Assembly (NCBI RefSeq): GCF_050920415.1
Contig: NZ_CP169309.1
DNA length: 64,000 bases
Source of the DNA: Escherichia coli
GTDB lineage: Bacteria; Pseudomonadota; Gammaproteobacteria; Enterobacterales; Enterobacteriaceae
Reading direction: 5' to 3' (one strand)
The translations under genes were made by a program, and so were the position numbers. Numbering within the stretch: position 1 is the first letter of the stretch; each line of letters begins with the position of its first letter. This document shows positions 1-59,819 of this stretch, piece by piece. The notes beneath the pieces are model-generated. The model worked only from the letters and a program-made list of their open reading frames with translations, ran no database searches and was not told the origin of the DNA.

Positions 1-312
1 GGCTGCGACCATTGGCCCCAACATCAGCGAAGTCACATCGCCGACGCCGCCGGTCGAGTGTTTATCAACAATCGGGCCATTCAGATGCAGGCTTTTCCAG
101 TCGAGAACGGTTCCTGAATCTCGCATCGCCATCGTCAGCGAGACACGCTCCGGCATTGTCATATCGTGGAAGAAAATGGTCATCGCGAGGGCGGCAATCT
201 GCCCTTCGGAGATAGTGTTGTCGCGAATACCGTTGATAAAGAAGCGAATTTCTTCATCGCTCAGCGCATGACCATCACGTTTTTTACGAATAATTTCTTG
301 TGCGAGAAACAA
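1..312 (-). CDS. deoA: Thymidine phosphorylase, N-terminal part; gene runs off the window edge; apparent TTG start at 310-312
   Basis: Reverse-strand translation reads [31 protein letters not shown]..., the recalled DeoA N-terminus; position immediately downstream of deoC. Confidence 0.85.
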
Positions 313-409
313 GGTAACCTCCCGTGGAATAAGTTTGAAGGCGTTGTTGCCAGATGGCGGATGTTGTTATTGCCTGATGCTGACCGCTTCTTATCCTGCC
401 TACACGGCA

Positions 410-455
410 ATCGTCCCGTAGGCCGGATAAGGCGTTCGCGCCGCATCCGGCATCC
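410..455. repeat. REP-type palindromic element in the deoC-deoA spacer
   Basis: GCCGGATAAGGCGTTCGCGCCGCATCCGGCA motif, typical of E. coli REP sequences. Confidence 0.6.
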
Positions 456-475
456 ACCCTCTGGCAAAAGGCAGC

Positions 476-1255
476 TTAGTAGCTGCTGGCGCTCTTACCG
501 TCGCCGTGGCCCAGCGCTTTCAGCAGGCTTGCCAGCAGGCTGGAAGCACCAAAGCGGTAGTGACGCGCATCAGCCCAGTCAGCACCGAACAGTTCATCTG
601 CGATGGCAAGATATTTCTGCGCATCTTCCGCAGTACGCACGCCGCCCGCCGGTTTGAAACCAACGGTTTTTTCTACGCCCATGTCGCGAATCACTTCCAT
701 CATGATGCGCGCGCTTTCCGGCGTCGCATTCACAGCCACTTTACCGGTAGAGGTTTTGATGAAATCAGCACCCGCTTTGATGGATATTTCAGACGCTTTG
801 CGGATCAGCGCTTCGTCTTTCAGTTCGCCGGTTTCGATGATCACTTTCAGCAGTACATTCGCTGCCGCGCAAGCCTCTTTACAGGCTTTCACCAGGTCAA
901 AACCTACCTGCTCGTTACCCGCCATCAGCGCACGGTACGGGAACACCACATCAACTTCATCGGCACCGTAGGCGATTGCCGCGCGGGTTTCGGCCAGCGC
1001 GATTTCGATATCGTCGTTACCGTGTGGGAAGTTGGTTACCGTAGCGATACGGATTTCCGGGGTACCCTGCTCTTTCAGCGTTTTGCGAGCAATTGGGATA
1101 AAGCGAGGATAGATACAGATAGCGGCGGTATTGCCGACCGGAGTTTTGGCCTGATGACACAGGGCGATCACTTTCTCGTCGGTGTCGTCGTCATTCAGGG
1201 TGGTCAGGTCCATCAATTTCAGTGCACGCAGGCTGCTTGCTTTCAGATCAGTCAT
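476..1255 (-). CDS. deoC: Deoxyribose-phosphate aldolase (259 aa)
   Basis: ORF 476..1279 contains [33 protein letters not shown]...; start trimmed to the MTDLK methionine. Confidence 0.95.
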
Positions 1256-1299
1256 TTCATTCTCCTGGCTTGTCGCCAATAAAATTCACCTTGCGAGTT

Positions 1300-1315
1300 T
1301 GTTAGTATTCTAACA
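1300..1315. promoter_or_regulatory. DeoR operator O2 at deo promoter P2
   Basis: 16 bp palindrome TGTTAGTATTCTAACA (reverse complement TGTTAGAATACTAACA) about 45 bp upstream of the deoC start. Confidence 0.8.
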
Positions 1316-1513
1316 TCGACTCCGCAACACACTTCGATATACATCACAATTAAGGAAATCTACTTACAAAATTGCATTACTGTAATGCGATCTGGTTCAA
1401 ATAATTCACTTTCAAATGAATGCGTCAGTGGTGGCAAACGCATCAGGATCAAAGTGAACATCACGAAACTTCTTACAATGGCGCATCACCTTCGGCATAA
1501 AAAGGAACAGAAG

Positions 1514-3064
1514 ATGCCCACTTCTCATGAAAATGCACTGCAACAACGTTGCCAGCAAATTGTCACCAGCTCAGTACTTAGCCCGGAGCAGAAGCGCCAT
1601 TTTCTGGCGCTGGAAGCAGAAAACAATCTGCCTTACCCACAGCTTCCTGCCGAAGCCCGCCGCGCGCTGGATGAAGGTGTAATCTGCGATATGTTTGAAG
1701 GTCATGCGCCGTATAAACCGCGCTATGTCTTACCCGATTACGCCCGTTTTTTGGCCAACGGTTCCGAATGGCTGGAGCTGGAAGGCGCAAAAGATCTTGA
1801 TGACGCACTCTCTCTGCTGACCATTCTTTACCACCACGTTCCTTCGGTCACATCGATGCCGGTCTACCTGGGGCAACTGGATGCGTTGTTGCAACCGTAT
1901 GTTAGAATTCTAACACAAGACGAGATCGATATTCGAATAAAACGTTTCTGGCGTTACCTCGACAGAACCCTGCCAGACGCCTTTATGCACGCCAATATTG
2001 GCCCATCTGATTCACCCATTACCCGTGCGATTTTACGCGCAGACGCAGAGCTGAAGCAGGTTTCACCGAACCTGACTTTTATCTACGATCCTGAAATCAC
2101 CCCTGATGACCTGCTGCTGGAAGTGGCGAAAAACATCTGTGAATGTAGCAAACCGCACATCGCCAACGGTCCCGTGCATGATAAAATTTTCACAAAAGGG
2201 AGCTACGGGATTGTGAGCTGTTACAACTCACTGCCGTTAGCGGGTGGTGGCAGTACGCTGGTACGCCTCAACCTGAAAGCCATTGCCGAGCGCAGTGAAT
2301 CGCTGGATGACTTCTTTACGCGCACTCTACCGCACTACTGCCAGCAGCAAATCGCCATCATCGATGCGCGGTGTGAATTCCTCTATCAACAATCACACTT
2401 CTTTGAGAATAGCTTCCTGGTGAAAGAAGGGCTGATTAACCCTGAACGTTTTGTGCCAATGTTTGGCATGTATGGGCTGGCGGAAGCGGTTAACTTGCTG
2501 TGTGAAAAAGAAGGAATTGCCGCACGTTACGGTAAAGAAGCCGCCGCAAATGAAGTGGGTTATCGCATTAGCGCGCAACTGGCGGAGTTTGTCGCCAATA
2601 CCCCCGTGAAATATGGCTGGCAAAAACGCGCCATGTTACACGCACAGTCGGGGATAAGTTCCGATATCGGCACCACGCCGGGCGCGCGTTTGCCGTATGG
2701 CGATGAGCCAGATCCGATCACCCATCTGCAAACTGTCGCCCCGCATCATGCTTATTATTATTCCGGCATCAGCGACATTTTGACGCTCGACGAAACCATC
2801 AAACGTAATCCGCAGGCGCTGGTACAGCTTTGCCTCGGTGCCTTTAAAGCCGGAATGCGTGAATTTACCGCCAATGTCAGCGGTAACGATCTGGTTCGCG
2901 TTACCGGTTATATGGTGCGTTTGTCGGATTTAGAAAAATATCGTGCCGAAGGTTCACGTACCAATACCACCTGGCTGGGAGAAGAAGCCGCACGCAACAC
3001 TCGTATTCTGGAACGCCAGCCGCGCGTTATAAGCCATGAACAGCAGATGCGCTTTAGTCAGTAA
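1514..3064 (+). CDS. yjjI: Glycyl-radical-enzyme-like protein YjjI (516 aa), divergent from deoC
   Basis: ORF 1385..3064; start placed at [11 protein letters not shown] to give 516 aa; conserved position between deoC and yjjW. Confidence 0.8.
1900..1915. promoter_or_regulatory. DeoR operator O1 at deo promoter P1, lying inside the yjjI coding region
   Basis: Perfect palindrome TGTTAGAATTCTAACA, centre 600 bp from O2, matching the known ~599 bp O1-O2 spacing. Confidence 0.8.
2179..2194. promoter_or_regulatory. Candidate DeoR distal operator OE
   Basis: TGATAAAATTTTCACA, 12/16 match to the DeoR palindrome, centre 879 bp from O2 (literature places OE 878 bp upstream). Confidence 0.55.
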
Positions 3065-3899
3065 GATTATCCCCTTCTCCTGCGTTGACGGGCCAGGCAG
3101 TCGTCTGGCTCTGTTTTTACAGGGCTGCAATCTGCGCTGCAAAAACTGTCACAATCCGTGGACGATGGGGCGCTGTAATGATTGCGGTAAGTGCGTGCCA
3201 CAGTGTCCGCATCAGGCGTTGCAGATTATTAACAGCAAAGTAGTGTGGAACGCAGCCGTCTGCGAGCAGTGTGATACCTGTCTGAAGATGTGTCCGCAAC
3301 ATGCCACGCCGATGGCGCAATCCATGAGCGTGGATGAGGTGCTTAGACATATCCGCAAAGCGGTGCTGTTTATCGAAGGGATAACGGTAAGCGGCGGCGA
3401 AGCCACGACCCAGCTGCCGTTTGTGGTGGCGCTGTTTACTGCCATCAAAAACGATCCGCAACTGTGCCATCTCACCTGTCTGGTGGACAGTAACGGCATG
3501 TTGAGCGAAACCGGCTGGGAAAAATTACTCCCAGTGTGCGACGGCGCGATGCTCGACCTCAAAGCGTGGGGTGGCGCGTGCCATCAACAGCTAACCGGAC
3601 GCGATAATCAGCAGATCAAGCGCAGCATTAGTCTGCTTGCCGAGCGCGGCAAACTGGCAGAACTGCGTTTGCTGGTAATCCCAGGCCACGTGGATTATTT
3701 GCAGCATATCGATGAGCTGGCGGCGTTTATCAAGGGTCTTGGCGATGTTCCGGTACGCCTGAACGCGTTTCATGCTCACGGCGTGTATGGCGAGGCGCAA
3801 AGCTGGGCGAGCGCCACGCCGGAAGACGTTGAGCAATTGGCTGATGCGTTACGGGAGCACGGGGTGAGCCGATTAATATTTCCGGCGCTGTATTTGTGA
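3036..3899 (+). CDS. yjjW: Glycyl-radical enzyme activating protein (radical SAM, 287 aa)
   Basis: Cys-rich N-terminus [27 protein letters not shown] and ferredoxin-like CxxC clusters; follows yjjI. Confidence 0.8.
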
Positions 3900-4130
3900 C
3901 ATGGCGGATGCAGCCTACGGTTCGGCACAGACCTGTAGGCATGATAAGACGCGTCAGCGTCGCATCAGGCATTGTGCGTCGACTGCCGGATGCGGTGTGA
4001 CGCCTTATCCGGCTTACGGTTCGGCACAGACTTGTAGGCATGATAAGACGCGTCAGCGTCGCATCAGGCATTGTGCGTCGACTGCCGGATGCGGTGTGAA
4101 CGCCTTATCCGGCTTACGAAGGGCAGACTA
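3900..4130. repeat. Tandem REP/BIME array, two ~96 bp units
   Basis: Near-identical units at about 3925-4020 and 4021-4115, each carrying GCCGGATGCGGTGTGA(A)CGCCTTATCCGGC. Confidence 0.8.
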
Positions 4131-4910
4131 CCCACGAACGTTAAACACCGCATACGTGTTATTAAGCAACACTTCGGCAATCTCATCCGCGGGTTCCGGG
4201 CGTAACTCGCACAGCACGGCAAACACACGGGCGGCCTGTTCAGGGCGATTAGGCTGCCCCTGAAAACCATTGAGCGGCATATCTGGTGCGTCGGTCTCCA
4301 GCAACATCGATGCCAGCGGCAGCTTTGCGATGACATCGCGGGTTTTACTGGCGCGTGGATAGGTGATAGTACCGCCTACGCCAATTTTGTAGCCCAGCTG
4401 CACAAACCGTTCGGCCTGTTGCAGGCTGCCAGAAAAACCATGAACCACACCAGTGCGTGGCAAATTTTGGCGTTTAAGATGCATCGCCAGTTTGTCGTGC
4501 GTGCGCCGTGAATGAAGGATCACCGGCAGATCGTAGCGTTTCGCCAGTTTCAGTTGTTCATCAAGCAACCACTGCTGCCTCTCAAATTGCGGATCGTCAC
4601 CAAAGAGATCCAGGCCGATCTCCCCCACCGCCACCACCTTCGTCGGACGTCTTCCCAACGCCTGCTGTAACTGATCCAGCGATGCATCGTTATGTTTTTC
4701 CAACATCCCCGGATGGAACCCTAAAGCGGCATACAGCGGTTGATAATTTTCCGCTAACGCCTGCACGCGGGCAAAATTTGCCGCCTCGGTGGCCGGAACA
4801 ATGATCTTGCCTACGCCCGCTTGTGCCGCGCGTTGCAGGCTGGCCTCTTCATCGCCACTAAACGGCGGGAAATCAAAATGGCAGTGGGTGTCGATAAAAC
4901 GGCAAATCAA
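4128..4910 (-). CDS. yjjV: TatD-family metal-dependent hydrolase/DNase
   Basis: MICRFIDTHCHFDFPPF... with the TatD HxH motif; conserved synteny. Confidence 0.85.
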   Translation of the reverse strand: MICRFIDTHCHFDFPPFSGDEEASLQRAAQAGVGKIIVPATEAANFARVQALAENYQPLYAALGFHPGMLEKHNDASLDQLQQALGRRPTKVVAVGEIGLDLFGDDPQFERQQWLLDEQLKLAKRYDLPVILHSRRTHDKLAMHLKRQNLPRTGVVHGFSGSLQQAERFVQLGYKIGVGGTITYPRASKTRDVIAKLPLASMLLETDAPDMPLNGFQGQPNRPEQAARVFAVLCELRPEPADEIAEVLLNNTYAVFNVRG

Positions 4911-59732: not shown

Positions 59733-59819
59733 GCGAAGGTGGCGGAATTGGTAGACGCGCTAGCTTCAGGTGTTAGTGTTCTTACGGACGTGGGGGTTCA
59801 AGTCCCCCCCCTCGCACCA
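59733..59819 (+). tRNA. leuP: tRNA-Leu (anticodon CAG), 87 nt, one variable-arm substitution
   Basis: Same sequence with GTGTTC instead of GTGTCC. Confidence 0.9.

What the first reader, a model, noticed from the sequence alone, without database searches (positions are those of the whole stretch)
1300..2194. All three DeoR operators recovered, two of them inside the yjjI coding sequence
O2 (1300-1315), O1 (1900-1915) and a candidate OE (2179-2194) sit at the literature spacings of about 599 and 878 bp. O1 and OE lie within the divergently transcribed yjjI gene, so deo P1 and yjjI coding sequence overlap.
Basis: partly seen in the sequence, partly recalled or inferred. Interest (0 to 1): 0.3.

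Follow-up and report, generated by a model that had tools for sequence, protein, structure and literature searches.

The report
Known DeoR operators of deo operon
The three sites are the long-known DeoR repressor binding sites (O2, O1, OE) of the E. coli deoCABD operon; two do lie inside the oppositely oriented yjjI gene, where they are the most strongly conserved silent-site stretches of that gene, so the finding is correct but ordinary.

Summary
Observation and interpretation are both confirmed, and the feature is already known. The window is E. coli: deoC 476-1255 (-), yjjI 1514-3064 (+).

- **Sites.** O2 is at 1300-1315 (1 mismatch to TGTTAGAATTCTAACA), O1 at 1900-1915 (perfect) and OE at 2179-2194 (4 mismatches).
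- **K-12 comparison.** All three 16-mers are identical in K-12, where the spacings are exactly 599 bp (O1-O2), 279 bp (OE-O1) and 878 bp (OE-O2). This window carries a 1-bp insertion just upstream of the yjjI ATG, so its spacings are 600 and 879 bp.
- **Location in yjjI.** O1 covers codons 129-134 and OE covers codons 222-227, both in the same reading phase.
- **Strength of OE.** On sequence alone OE is no better than chance: 4 sites with 4 or fewer mismatches were found in 64 kb, against 2.3 expected. Its exact K-12 spacing and its conservation identify it.
- **Conservation.** Across 69 species-level yjjI sequences that have deoC next door, the OE and O1 windows have the lowest synonymous codon variation in the whole gene (ranks 1 and 4 of 488; ranks 2-3 overlap OE). 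In four Proteus species, where deoC was not found next to yjjI, both sites are gone.

Mechanism (from the literature, not tested here): DeoR occludes the -10 regions of P1 and P2 and loops the DNA between the three operators.

Not novel; low interest.

The parts
476..1255 (-). deoC coding sequence, first gene of deoCABD
   Evidence: RefSeq annotation of a 100% identical genome. Pfam DeoC/LacD aldolase, E = 5e-49.
1300..1315 (-). DeoR operator O2. Reads TGTTAGAATACTAACA in the deo direction and is inferred to span -15 to +1 of promoter P2.
   Evidence: Identical in K-12. Matches the published sequence (PMC5326754). Present with 1-4 mismatches, 35-59 bp from the deoC ATG, in the 72 non-Hafnia/Edwardsiella loci that have deoC adjacent. 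The -15..+1 placement is inferred from the CRP-1 centre lying 40.5 bp upstream.
1307..1312 (-). P2 -10 hexamer TAGAAT. It is preceded by TG at 1314-1315, giving an extended -10 (TGTTAGAAT) contained within O2.
   Evidence: Read directly from the sequence. Promoter assignment is inferred; no transcription start data are available here.
1333..1348 (-). CRP-1 core of deoP2 (TGTGATGTATATCGAA), centred 40.5 bp upstream of position 1300
   Evidence: Sequence reading combined with established knowledge of deoP2 (tandem CRP sites at -40.5 and -93.5). PMC3454398 describes the CRP-CytR-CRP arrangement. Not tested here.
1362..1377 (-). CytR operator region between the two CRP sites. Reads AATGCAATTTTGTAAG here and GATGCAAACTTGTAAG in K-12.
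   Evidence: Alignment to K-12. Literature arrangement from PMC3454398. Boundaries are approximate.
1386..1401 (-). CRP-2 core of deoP2 (TTTGAACCAGATCGCA), 53 bp centre-to-centre from CRP-1
   Evidence: Sequence reading. The 53-bp spacing equals the published difference between -40.5 and -93.5 (own knowledge). Not tested here.
1301..1899 (-). Leader of the P1 transcript up to P2. It is antisense to yjjI codons 1-129, the yjjI 5' region and the yjjI promoter region.
   Evidence: Follows from the O1/P1 position and the yjjI annotation. Inferred; no Rfam family matches here.
1514..3064 (+). yjjI coding sequence (516 aa, YjjI-family glycyl radical enzyme), host gene of O1, P1 and OE
   Evidence: Annotation. 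Pfam PF11230, E = 2e-220, residues 22-504. Full-length orthologues at 71-99% identity in 80 loci.
1900..1915 (.). DeoR operator O1, the perfect palindrome TGTTAGAATTCTAACA. It covers yjjI codons 129-134 (Y V R I L T), contains the P1 extended -10, and is inferred to span -15 to +1 of P1.
   Evidence: Identical in K-12. Retained with 0-2 mismatches at exactly +386 of yjjI in every locus with adjacent deoC, and lost (6-8 mismatches) in Proteus. Synonymous entropy rank 4 of 488, z = -3.4. It accounts for one of only two AGA codons and one of only two CTA codons in yjjI.
1907..1912 (-). P1 -10 hexamer TAGAAT, with TG at 1914-1915
   Evidence: Sequence reading, by analogy with P2. Inferred.
1933..1952 (-). 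Conserved block upstream of P1, about -33 to -52. Reads GCCAGAAACGTTTTATTCGA in the deo direction and probably holds the weak -35 and an A/T-rich upstream element.
   Evidence: Third-position conservation. Uses rare codons CGA-ATA in yjjI. Partly explained by the conserved KRFWR peptide, which Proteus also keeps. Function is inferred.
2179..2194 (.). DeoR operator OE (TGATAAAATTTTCACA; TGTGAAAATTTTATCA in the deo direction). It covers yjjI codons 222-227 (H D K I F T). The conserved block extends over 2178-2199.
   Evidence: Identical in K-12, 279 bp from O1 and 878 bp from O2. The literature places OE about 300 bp upstream of O1 (PMC8053113). The 16-mer is unchanged in most species and has at most 2 changes in every locus with adjacent deoC; it is destroyed (9-10 changes) in Proteus. 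Lowest synonymous entropy in the whole gene, rank 1 of 488, z = -3.7.

Best explanation
These are the three operators of the DeoR repressor that control the two tandem promoters of the E. coli deoCABD (nucleoside catabolism) operon.

O1 and O2 each carry an extended -10 element (TGTTAGAAT) inside the 16-bp palindrome. Bound DeoR therefore occludes RNA polymerase at P1 and P2.

OE is a weaker site 279 bp upstream of O1. It acts as an auxiliary operator. The multimeric repressor binds two or three operators at once and loops out the intervening 279, 600 or 879 bp. This raises local repressor concentration and tightens repression. Deoxyribose-5-phosphate releases DeoR. P2 is additionally activated by CRP at two sites and anti-activated by CytR.

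Shown here:
- The sequences and positions of the sites, and their identity with K-12.
- Their location inside yjjI.
- Strong selection on the DNA sequence of O1 and OE that is independent of the YjjI protein.

Taken from the literature or inferred: DeoR binding, promoter occlusion, looping and induction.
For: - **K-12 match.** All three 16-mers are identical in K-12 and give spacings of exactly 599, 279 and 878 bp.
- **Published sequences and spacings.** The O1 and O2 sequences match (PMC5326754). The promoters are 599 bp apart (PMC3334521). O1 and O2 are about 600 bp apart with OE about 300 bp further upstream, and loops between all sites were seen by electron microscopy (PMC8053113). Looping acts naturally over up to about 900 bp (PMC4217526).
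- **Conservation of O1.** It sits at yjjI +386 with 0-2 mismatches in all loci that have a divergent deoC neighbour.
- **Conservation of OE.** The 16-mer is unchanged or has 1-2 changes in the same loci.
- **Silent-site profile.** The OE and O1 windows are the two lowest-entropy non-overlapping 6-codon windows of yjjI across 69 representatives (0.018 and 0.086 bits against a mean of 1.09; z = -3.7 and -3.4).
- **Natural control.** Four Proteus species have yjjI with no deoC found in the fetched flanks, and both sites have decayed.
- **Tolerated positions.** Three of OE's four deviations from the palindrome are G6-to-A in both half-sites and T4-to-G in one. These changes also occur naturally in orthologous O1 and O2 (TGTTAAAA..., TGTGAAAA..., TGTGAG...). 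The fourth deviation, T3-to-A, has no such precedent.
- **Promoter geometry.** The CRP-1 core lies 40.5 bp upstream of the last base of O2, as expected if O2 spans -15 to +1 of P2.
Against: - No binding, transcription-start or expression data can be produced with these tools.
- The primary papers (Valentin-Hansen 1986, Dandanell 1987, Amouyal 1989, Mortensen 1989) were not available.
- OE is not above chance as a motif match. It is also an 8/10 match to the CRP core.
- The generic promoter scan did not call P1 or P2. That fits weak -35 elements but gives no positive support.
Confidence: 0.93

Rival explanations
1. The 2179-2194 element is conserved for a reason other than DeoR. It could be a CRP site (TGATA-N6-TCACA) or an internal promoter of yjjI, with the true OE lying elsewhere or not existing in this strain.
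For: The 16-mer has 4 mismatches to the DeoR palindrome and is not above chance on its own. It matches 8 of 10 core positions of the CRP consensus (sequence reading). The promoter scan flags a + strand site, TCGCCA-16-TAAAAT with an upstream TG, at 2160-2187, overlapping it.
Against: It sits at exactly 279 and 878 bp from O1 and O2 in K-12, and the literature places OE about 300 bp upstream of O1. No other site with 6 or fewer mismatches exists in 1950-2600. It is lost together with O1 in Proteus, where deoC is not adjacent. The single promoter-like hit is within the shuffle expectation (1 found against 1.6 expected).
Confidence: 0.04
2. The nucleotide invariance of O1 and OE merely reflects constraints on the YjjI protein or on codon usage. 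Their resemblance to operators inside the gene would then be incidental.
For: The encoded peptides (YVRILT, HDKIFT) are themselves fairly conserved within Enterobacteriaceae.
Against: Third codon positions are invariant only at these windows, while the rest of the gene shows a mean codon entropy of 1.1 bits. O1 uses the rare codons AGA and CTA, each only 2 per gene, which goes against codon-usage selection. Where amino acids do change (R to K, R to G, K to N), the changes keep an operator-like sequence. Proteus yjjI encodes different peptides and different codons at both places.
Confidence: 0.01

Closest known systems
E. coli K-12 deoCABD regulatory region: DeoR operators O1, O2 and OE with promoters deoP1 and deoP2
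   Same: All three operator 16-mers are identical. The gene order (yjjW-yjjI / deoC-deoA) and the positions within yjjI (+386, +665) are the same. The CRP-CytR-CRP module at P2 is present.
   Different: A 1-bp insertion upstream of the yjjI ATG makes the O1-O2 and OE-O2 spacings 600 and 879 bp instead of 599 and 878. The region is about 3% diverged overall. This includes 3 substitutions in the CytR operator region, 1 in the CRP-1 spacer and 1 between -35 and -10 of P2.
lac operon auxiliary operators (O2 inside lacZ, O3 upstream) and gal OE/OI (OI inside galE)
   Same: A primary operator at the promoter is combined with auxiliary operators hundreds of bp away. At least one lies inside a coding sequence, and a multimeric repressor acts through DNA looping (established knowledge; looping context in PMC4217526 and PMC8053113).
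   Different: In deo the intragenic operators, and a whole promoter (P1), lie inside a neighbouring, oppositely oriented, functionally unrelated gene rather than inside the regulated operon. Two promoters are repressed by one looped complex, and three-operator double loops are reported.
DeoR operators of nupG and tsx
   Same: Same repressor and the same palindromic motif family (PMC5326754).
   Different: They are at other loci outside this window and were not examined here.

Membership tests
DeoR operator set of the enterobacterial deoCABD operon | 16-bp palindromic operator TGTTAGAATTCTAACA or a close variant | tested here: met
   O1 has 0 mismatches, O2 has 1 and OE has 4. The O1 and O2 sequences equal those quoted in PMC5326754. 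OE is a weak match by itself.
DeoR operator set of the enterobacterial deoCABD operon | Positions: O2 just upstream of deoC at P2, O1 599 bp upstream, and OE a further ~279 bp upstream (878 bp from O2) in K-12 | tested here: met
   K-12 coordinates are 4617263, 4616664 and 4616385, giving 599, 279 and 878 bp. The window has 600, 279 and 879 bp. PMC3334521 and PMC8053113 give 599 / about 600 and about 300 bp.
DeoR operator set of the enterobacterial deoCABD operon | O1 and O2 overlap the -10 regions of deoP1 and deoP2 | tested here: inconclusive
   Both operators contain TGTTAGAAT, an extended -10-like element. The CRP-1 centre lies 40.5 bp upstream of the last base of O2. Transcription starts cannot be measured here, and the generic scan did not call these promoters.
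DeoR operator set of the enterobacterial deoCABD operon | Evolutionary retention linked to the deo operon | tested here: met
   O1 and OE are retained in all loci with adjacent deoC and lost in 4 Proteus loci without it. They have the lowest synonymous variation in yjjI.
DeoR operator set of the enterobacterial deoCABD operon | Binding by DeoR, release by deoxyribose-5-phosphate, and cooperative repression through DNA loops | not testable with these tools
   Literature only (PMC5326754, PMC8053113, PMC4217526).
CRP binding site (considered for OE) | TGTGA-N6-TCACA core with flanking A/T | tested here: inconclusive
   OE reads TGATA-AAATTT-TCACA, an 8/10 core match. O1 (TGTTA-N6-TAACA) is also 8/10, so the resemblance is a general property of the DeoR motif. 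No binding data are available.

The most novel reading that the evidence does not exclude
Because P1, O1 and OE sit inside yjjI, the DeoR system may also gate expression of the orphan glycyl-radical enzyme operon yjjIW. The FNR-dependent yjjI promoter region lies inside the O1-O2 loop. Three routes are possible: DeoR roadblocks at O1 and OE, loop formation, and, when DeoR is released, P1-driven antisense transcription through the yjjI promoter and first 386 nt. This would couple YjjI/YjjW to deoxynucleoside availability. It would also help explain why the yjjI-deoC junction is kept intact across Enterobacteriaceae.
Probability: 0.2. Interest if true: 0.45.

Novelty: already known. Interest (0 to 1): 0.15.

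Why it matters
The deo operators are a classic model of long-range repression by DNA looping, so recovering them adds nothing new. The useful by-product is a clean, quantified example of regulatory DNA embedded in a coding sequence. Two 16-bp operators and a promoter override synonymous drift and force rare codons (AGA, CTA) in an unrelated, oppositely oriented gene across dozens of species. The constraint vanishes where the deo operon is no longer adjacent. This is relevant to interpreting synonymous-site conservation. It also raises the untested possibility that yjjIW expression is entangled with deo regulation.

Tried and rejected
- **Primary papers.** Valentin-Hansen 1986, Dandanell & Hammer 1985, Mortensen 1989 and Dandanell 1987 are not held. 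Full-text searches for the operator sequences and for '878 bp' found nothing relevant. The exact published OE sequence is therefore unverified.
- **Population count in E. coli.** I tried counting genomes with an identical site using 30-mer megablast. This worked for O1: 4493 of 5426 genomes have the identical 30-mer. It was uninformative for OE (61 genomes). Strain-specific SNPs at 2173 and 2201 flank the site and break the 28-base word.
- **Promoter and terminator scan of 1200-2400.** It did not call P1 or P2. It gave one + strand hit overlapping OE, which is within chance expectation.
- **Rfam scan of 1-4200.** It found only REP-derived naRNA4 matches outside the regulatory region.
- **Literature link.** A search for a published connection between yjjI and DeoR or deoC listed none.
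- **FNR site.** I looked by eye for an FNR consensus upstream of yjjI and found no convincing match. This was not pursued.
- **Other motif match.** The only other site in the window with 4 mismatches (59771) lies between tRNA-Leu genes, assuming the window is collinear with the identical genome. I regard it as chance.

Full report
**What is in the window.** The first 4.2 kb is 100% identical to E. coli strain MFDS1022581 and about 97% identical to K-12. The annotation of the identical genome gives these genes:
- deoA (partial);
- deoC at window 476-1255 (-);
- yjjI at 1514-3064 (+);
- yjjW at 3036-3899 (+).

K-12 has the same arrangement: yjjI at 4615515-4617065 (-) and deoC at 4617323-4618102 (+). 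Pfam confirms all three proteins:
- YjjI: PF11230, E = 2e-220, residues 22-504;
- YjjW: a radical-SAM activase;
- DeoC: DeoC/LacD family aldolase.

**The observation.** The three 16-mers are at the stated coordinates.

| Site | Window coordinates | Sequence (+ strand) | Mismatches to TGTTAGAATTCTAACA |
|---|---|---|---|
| O2 | 1300-1315 | TGTTAGTATTCTAACA (reverse complement TGTTAGAATACTAACA) | 1 |
| O1 | 1900-1915 | TGTTAGAATTCTAACA | 0 |
| OE | 2179-2194 | TGATAAAATTTTCACA | 4 |

- The first two equal the DeoR palindromes quoted in PMC5326754.
- With up to 3 mismatches the window holds only these two sites, against 0.18 expected.
- The OE candidate is not significant on its own. The window holds 4 sites with 4 or fewer mismatches, against 2.3 +/- 1.5 in shuffles.
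- It is, however, the only site with 6 or fewer mismatches in 1950-2600.

**Check against K-12.** Aligning window 1256-2260 to K-12 shows all three 16-mers unchanged.
- In NC_000913.3 they start at 4617263 (O2), 4616664 (O1) and 4616385 (OE).
- The window has one extra base just upstream of the yjjI ATG, so here the spacings are 600 and 879 bp.

The accessible literature supports four points:
- the promoters are 599 bp apart (PMC3334521);
- O1 and O2 are about 600 bp apart, with OE about 300 bp further upstream, and loops between all sites were seen by electron microscopy (PMC8053113);
- looping acts naturally over up to about 900 bp (PMC4217526);
- DeoR is released by deoxyribose-5-phosphate (PMC5326754).

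The primary papers were not available. The exact published OE sequence therefore remains unverified. That 878 bp refers to OE-O2 is my recollection plus the arithmetic 599 + 279.

**Overlap with yjjI.**
- O1 starts 386 nt into yjjI and OE 665 nt in. Both begin at the third base of a codon, because 279 = 3 x 93.
- O1 encodes Y-V-R-I-L-T (codons 129-134). OE encodes H-D-K-I-F-T (codons 222-227).
- Each operator contains TGTTAGAAT, an extended -10-like element.
- At P2 the CRP-1 core (1333-1348) is centred 40.5 bp upstream of the last base of O2. The CRP-2 core (1386-1401) lies 53 bp further. This matches the known -40.5 and -93.5 architecture and puts O2 at -15 to +1.
- By analogy O1 spans -15 to +1 of P1.
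- P1 is therefore inside yjjI on the opposite strand. Its transcript is antisense to yjjI codons 1-129 and runs through the yjjI promoter region. These promoter assignments are inferred, not measured.

**Independent evidence that O1 and OE are functional DNA.** I fetched 80 yjjI loci from other Enterobacterales.
- **Synteny.** deoC is the divergent neighbour in 74 of the 80. No deoC was found in the four Proteus loci. Two further loci (L013, L064) were too short upstream to show it.
- **O1.** It is present at exactly yjjI +386 with 0-2 mismatches in every non-Proteus locus, including Hafnia and Edwardsiella, where YjjI identity is only 73-79%. In Proteus it has 6-8 mismatches.
- **OE.** The 16-mer is unchanged in most species and has at most 2 changes in the rest. 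In Proteus it has 9-10 changes.
- **Silent-site profile.** I built a codon alignment of 69 representatives (more than 4% nucleotide divergence from each other, mean 22%). I scored codon entropy among sequences that share the majority amino acid, in 6-codon windows.

| Window | Codons | Entropy (bits) | Rank of 488 | z |
|---|---|---|---|---|
| OE | 222-227 | 0.018 | 1 | -3.7 |
| O1 | 129-134 | 0.086 | 4 (ranks 2-3 overlap OE) | -3.4 |
| All windows (mean, sd) | - | 1.09, 0.29 | - | - |

- **Rare codons.** O1 holds one of only two AGA codons (33 Arg codons in all) and one of only two CTA codons (56 Leu codons in all) in yjjI.
- **Tolerated changes.** Natural O1 and O2 variants (TGTTAAAA..., TGTGAAAA..., TGTGAG...) carry the same substitutions (T4-to-G, G6-to-A) that account for three of OE's four differences from the palindrome. 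The fourth, T3-to-A, has no such precedent.
- **Flanking blocks.** A further conserved block at 1933-1952 lies about -33 to -52 of P1. The conserved block at the gene's 3' end coincides with the yjjI/yjjW overlap.

**Mechanism.** The best explanation is the established one, with confidence about 0.93.
- DeoR bound at O1 and O2 occludes the -10 regions of P1 and P2.
- OE is a weak auxiliary operator.
- The multimeric repressor bridges operators and forms single or double loops of 279, 600 and 879 bp, which gives cooperative repression.
- Deoxyribose-5-phosphate induces by releasing DeoR.
- CRP activates P2 and CytR anti-activates it.

Binding, looping and induction are taken from the literature. 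Sequence, position and selective constraint are shown here.

**Rivals.**
- OE could instead be a CRP site or an internal promoter. It is an 8/10 match to the CRP core, and a + strand promoter-like hit overlaps it. The exact K-12 spacing and its loss together with O1 in Proteus argue against this. The promoter hit is also within chance expectation.
- Pure protein or codon constraint is contradicted by the synonymous profile, the rare codons and the Proteus control.

**Comparison and novelty.** This is the K-12 deo regulatory region itself, in a strain with about 3% divergence and a 1-bp longer O1-O2 interval. It works like lac (O2 inside lacZ) and gal (OI inside galE), in that an auxiliary operator lies in coding DNA. 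It differs in that the host gene is a neighbouring, oppositely oriented gene, and a complete promoter is embedded as well.

The operators and their mechanism are already known. The overlap with yjjI is implicit in genome annotation. I found no listed paper that discusses it.

The only potentially new angle is that yjjIW may be affected by DeoR occupancy, looping or P1 antisense transcription. yjjI is reported as directly FNR-activated, with a ChIP peak at 4,615,181 in that paper's coordinates (PMC3688515). By my recollection of the older K-12 numbering, this lies in the yjjI-deoC intergenic region. This angle is untested.

**Verdict.** Observation confirmed, interpretation supported, feature already known, interest low.

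Noticed in passing
window 2396-2416 (yjjI codons 295-301): This is a third island of suppressed synonymous variation in yjjI (TTCTTTGAGAATAGCTTCCTG; entropy 0.245, z = -2.9). It is conserved in Escherichia, Citrobacter, Salmonella, Enterobacter and Lelliottia. It is lost in Atlantibacter, Hafnia, Edwardsiella and Proteus. It contains only a DeoR-like half-site (TTTGAGAA), and its function is unexplained.
   Followed up: partly
window 1300-1915 and loci L003-L078: Across species the O1-O2 spacing falls into clusters at 567-568, 589-592, 596-604 and 612 bp. The steps of about 11 or 22 bp hint at helical phasing. There are few independent indel events, and the main cluster itself spreads over 9 bp. 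OE-O1 is fixed at 279 bp because it lies in coding sequence.
   Followed up: partly
window ~1505-1510: There is a single-base insertion relative to K-12 between the yjjI ribosome-binding region and the ATG (CATAAAAAGGAACAGAAGATG here, CATAAAAGGAAAAGAAGATG in K-12). It makes O1-O2 600 bp rather than 599. Judging from match lengths, most E. coli genomes have the K-12 length.
   Followed up: partly
window 1318-1380: The deoP2 control region carries five substitutions relative to K-12: three in the CytR operator region (about 1370-1378), one in the CRP-1 spacer (about 1340) and one between -35 and -10 (about 1318). All three DeoR operators are unchanged. The effect on CytR regulation was not evaluated.
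   Followed up: no
window 1256-1513: yjjI is listed as directly FNR-activated, with a ChIP peak at 4,615,181 in that paper's coordinates (PMC3688515). By my recollection of the older K-12 numbering, this is about 70 bp upstream of the yjjI ATG, inside the O1-O2 loop and under the P1 transcript. I could not find a convincing FNR consensus by eye.
   Followed up: partly
window 1900-1915, 2179-2194: The DeoR motif (TGTTA-N6-TAACA) and OE (TGATA-N6-TCACA) each match 8 of 10 core positions of the CRP consensus TGTGA-N6-TCACA. O1 is a perfect palindrome, so it also presents an extended -10-like TGTTAGAAT on the yjjI sense strand.
   Followed up: no
window 3938-4014, 4037-4114 and 421-499: REP-type repeats matching Rfam naRNA4 (RF02564). 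Two full copies pass the gathering score downstream of yjjW. A partial copy lies between deoC and deoA.
   Followed up: no
window ~9200 to ~53700: Going by the annotation of the identical genome, a lambdoid prophage of about 45 kb lies between prfC and the rsmC/tRNA-Leu/fhuF region. It carries tail, capsid, terminase, lysis, Q antiterminator and repressor genes, three tRNAs and several frameshifted genes. From my memory of the K-12 gene map, not checked here, K-12 has no prophage at this position.
   Followed up: no
window 59771-59786: This is the only other 16-mer in the window with 4 mismatches to the DeoR palindrome (TGTTAGTGTTCTTACG). It lies in the spacer after the first of three tRNA-Leu genes, assuming the window is collinear with the identical genome. 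I regard it as a chance match.
   Followed up: partly
loci L073, L074, L077, L078 (Hafnia, Edwardsiella): O1-like and OE-like sites are kept inside yjjI. The intergenic region is about 460 bp, and the best O2-like site (TGTTACTATTTGAACA or TGTGATTATTTGAACA, 4-5 mismatches) lies 185-219 bp from the deoC ATG. This suggests a different P2 layout.
   Followed up: partly
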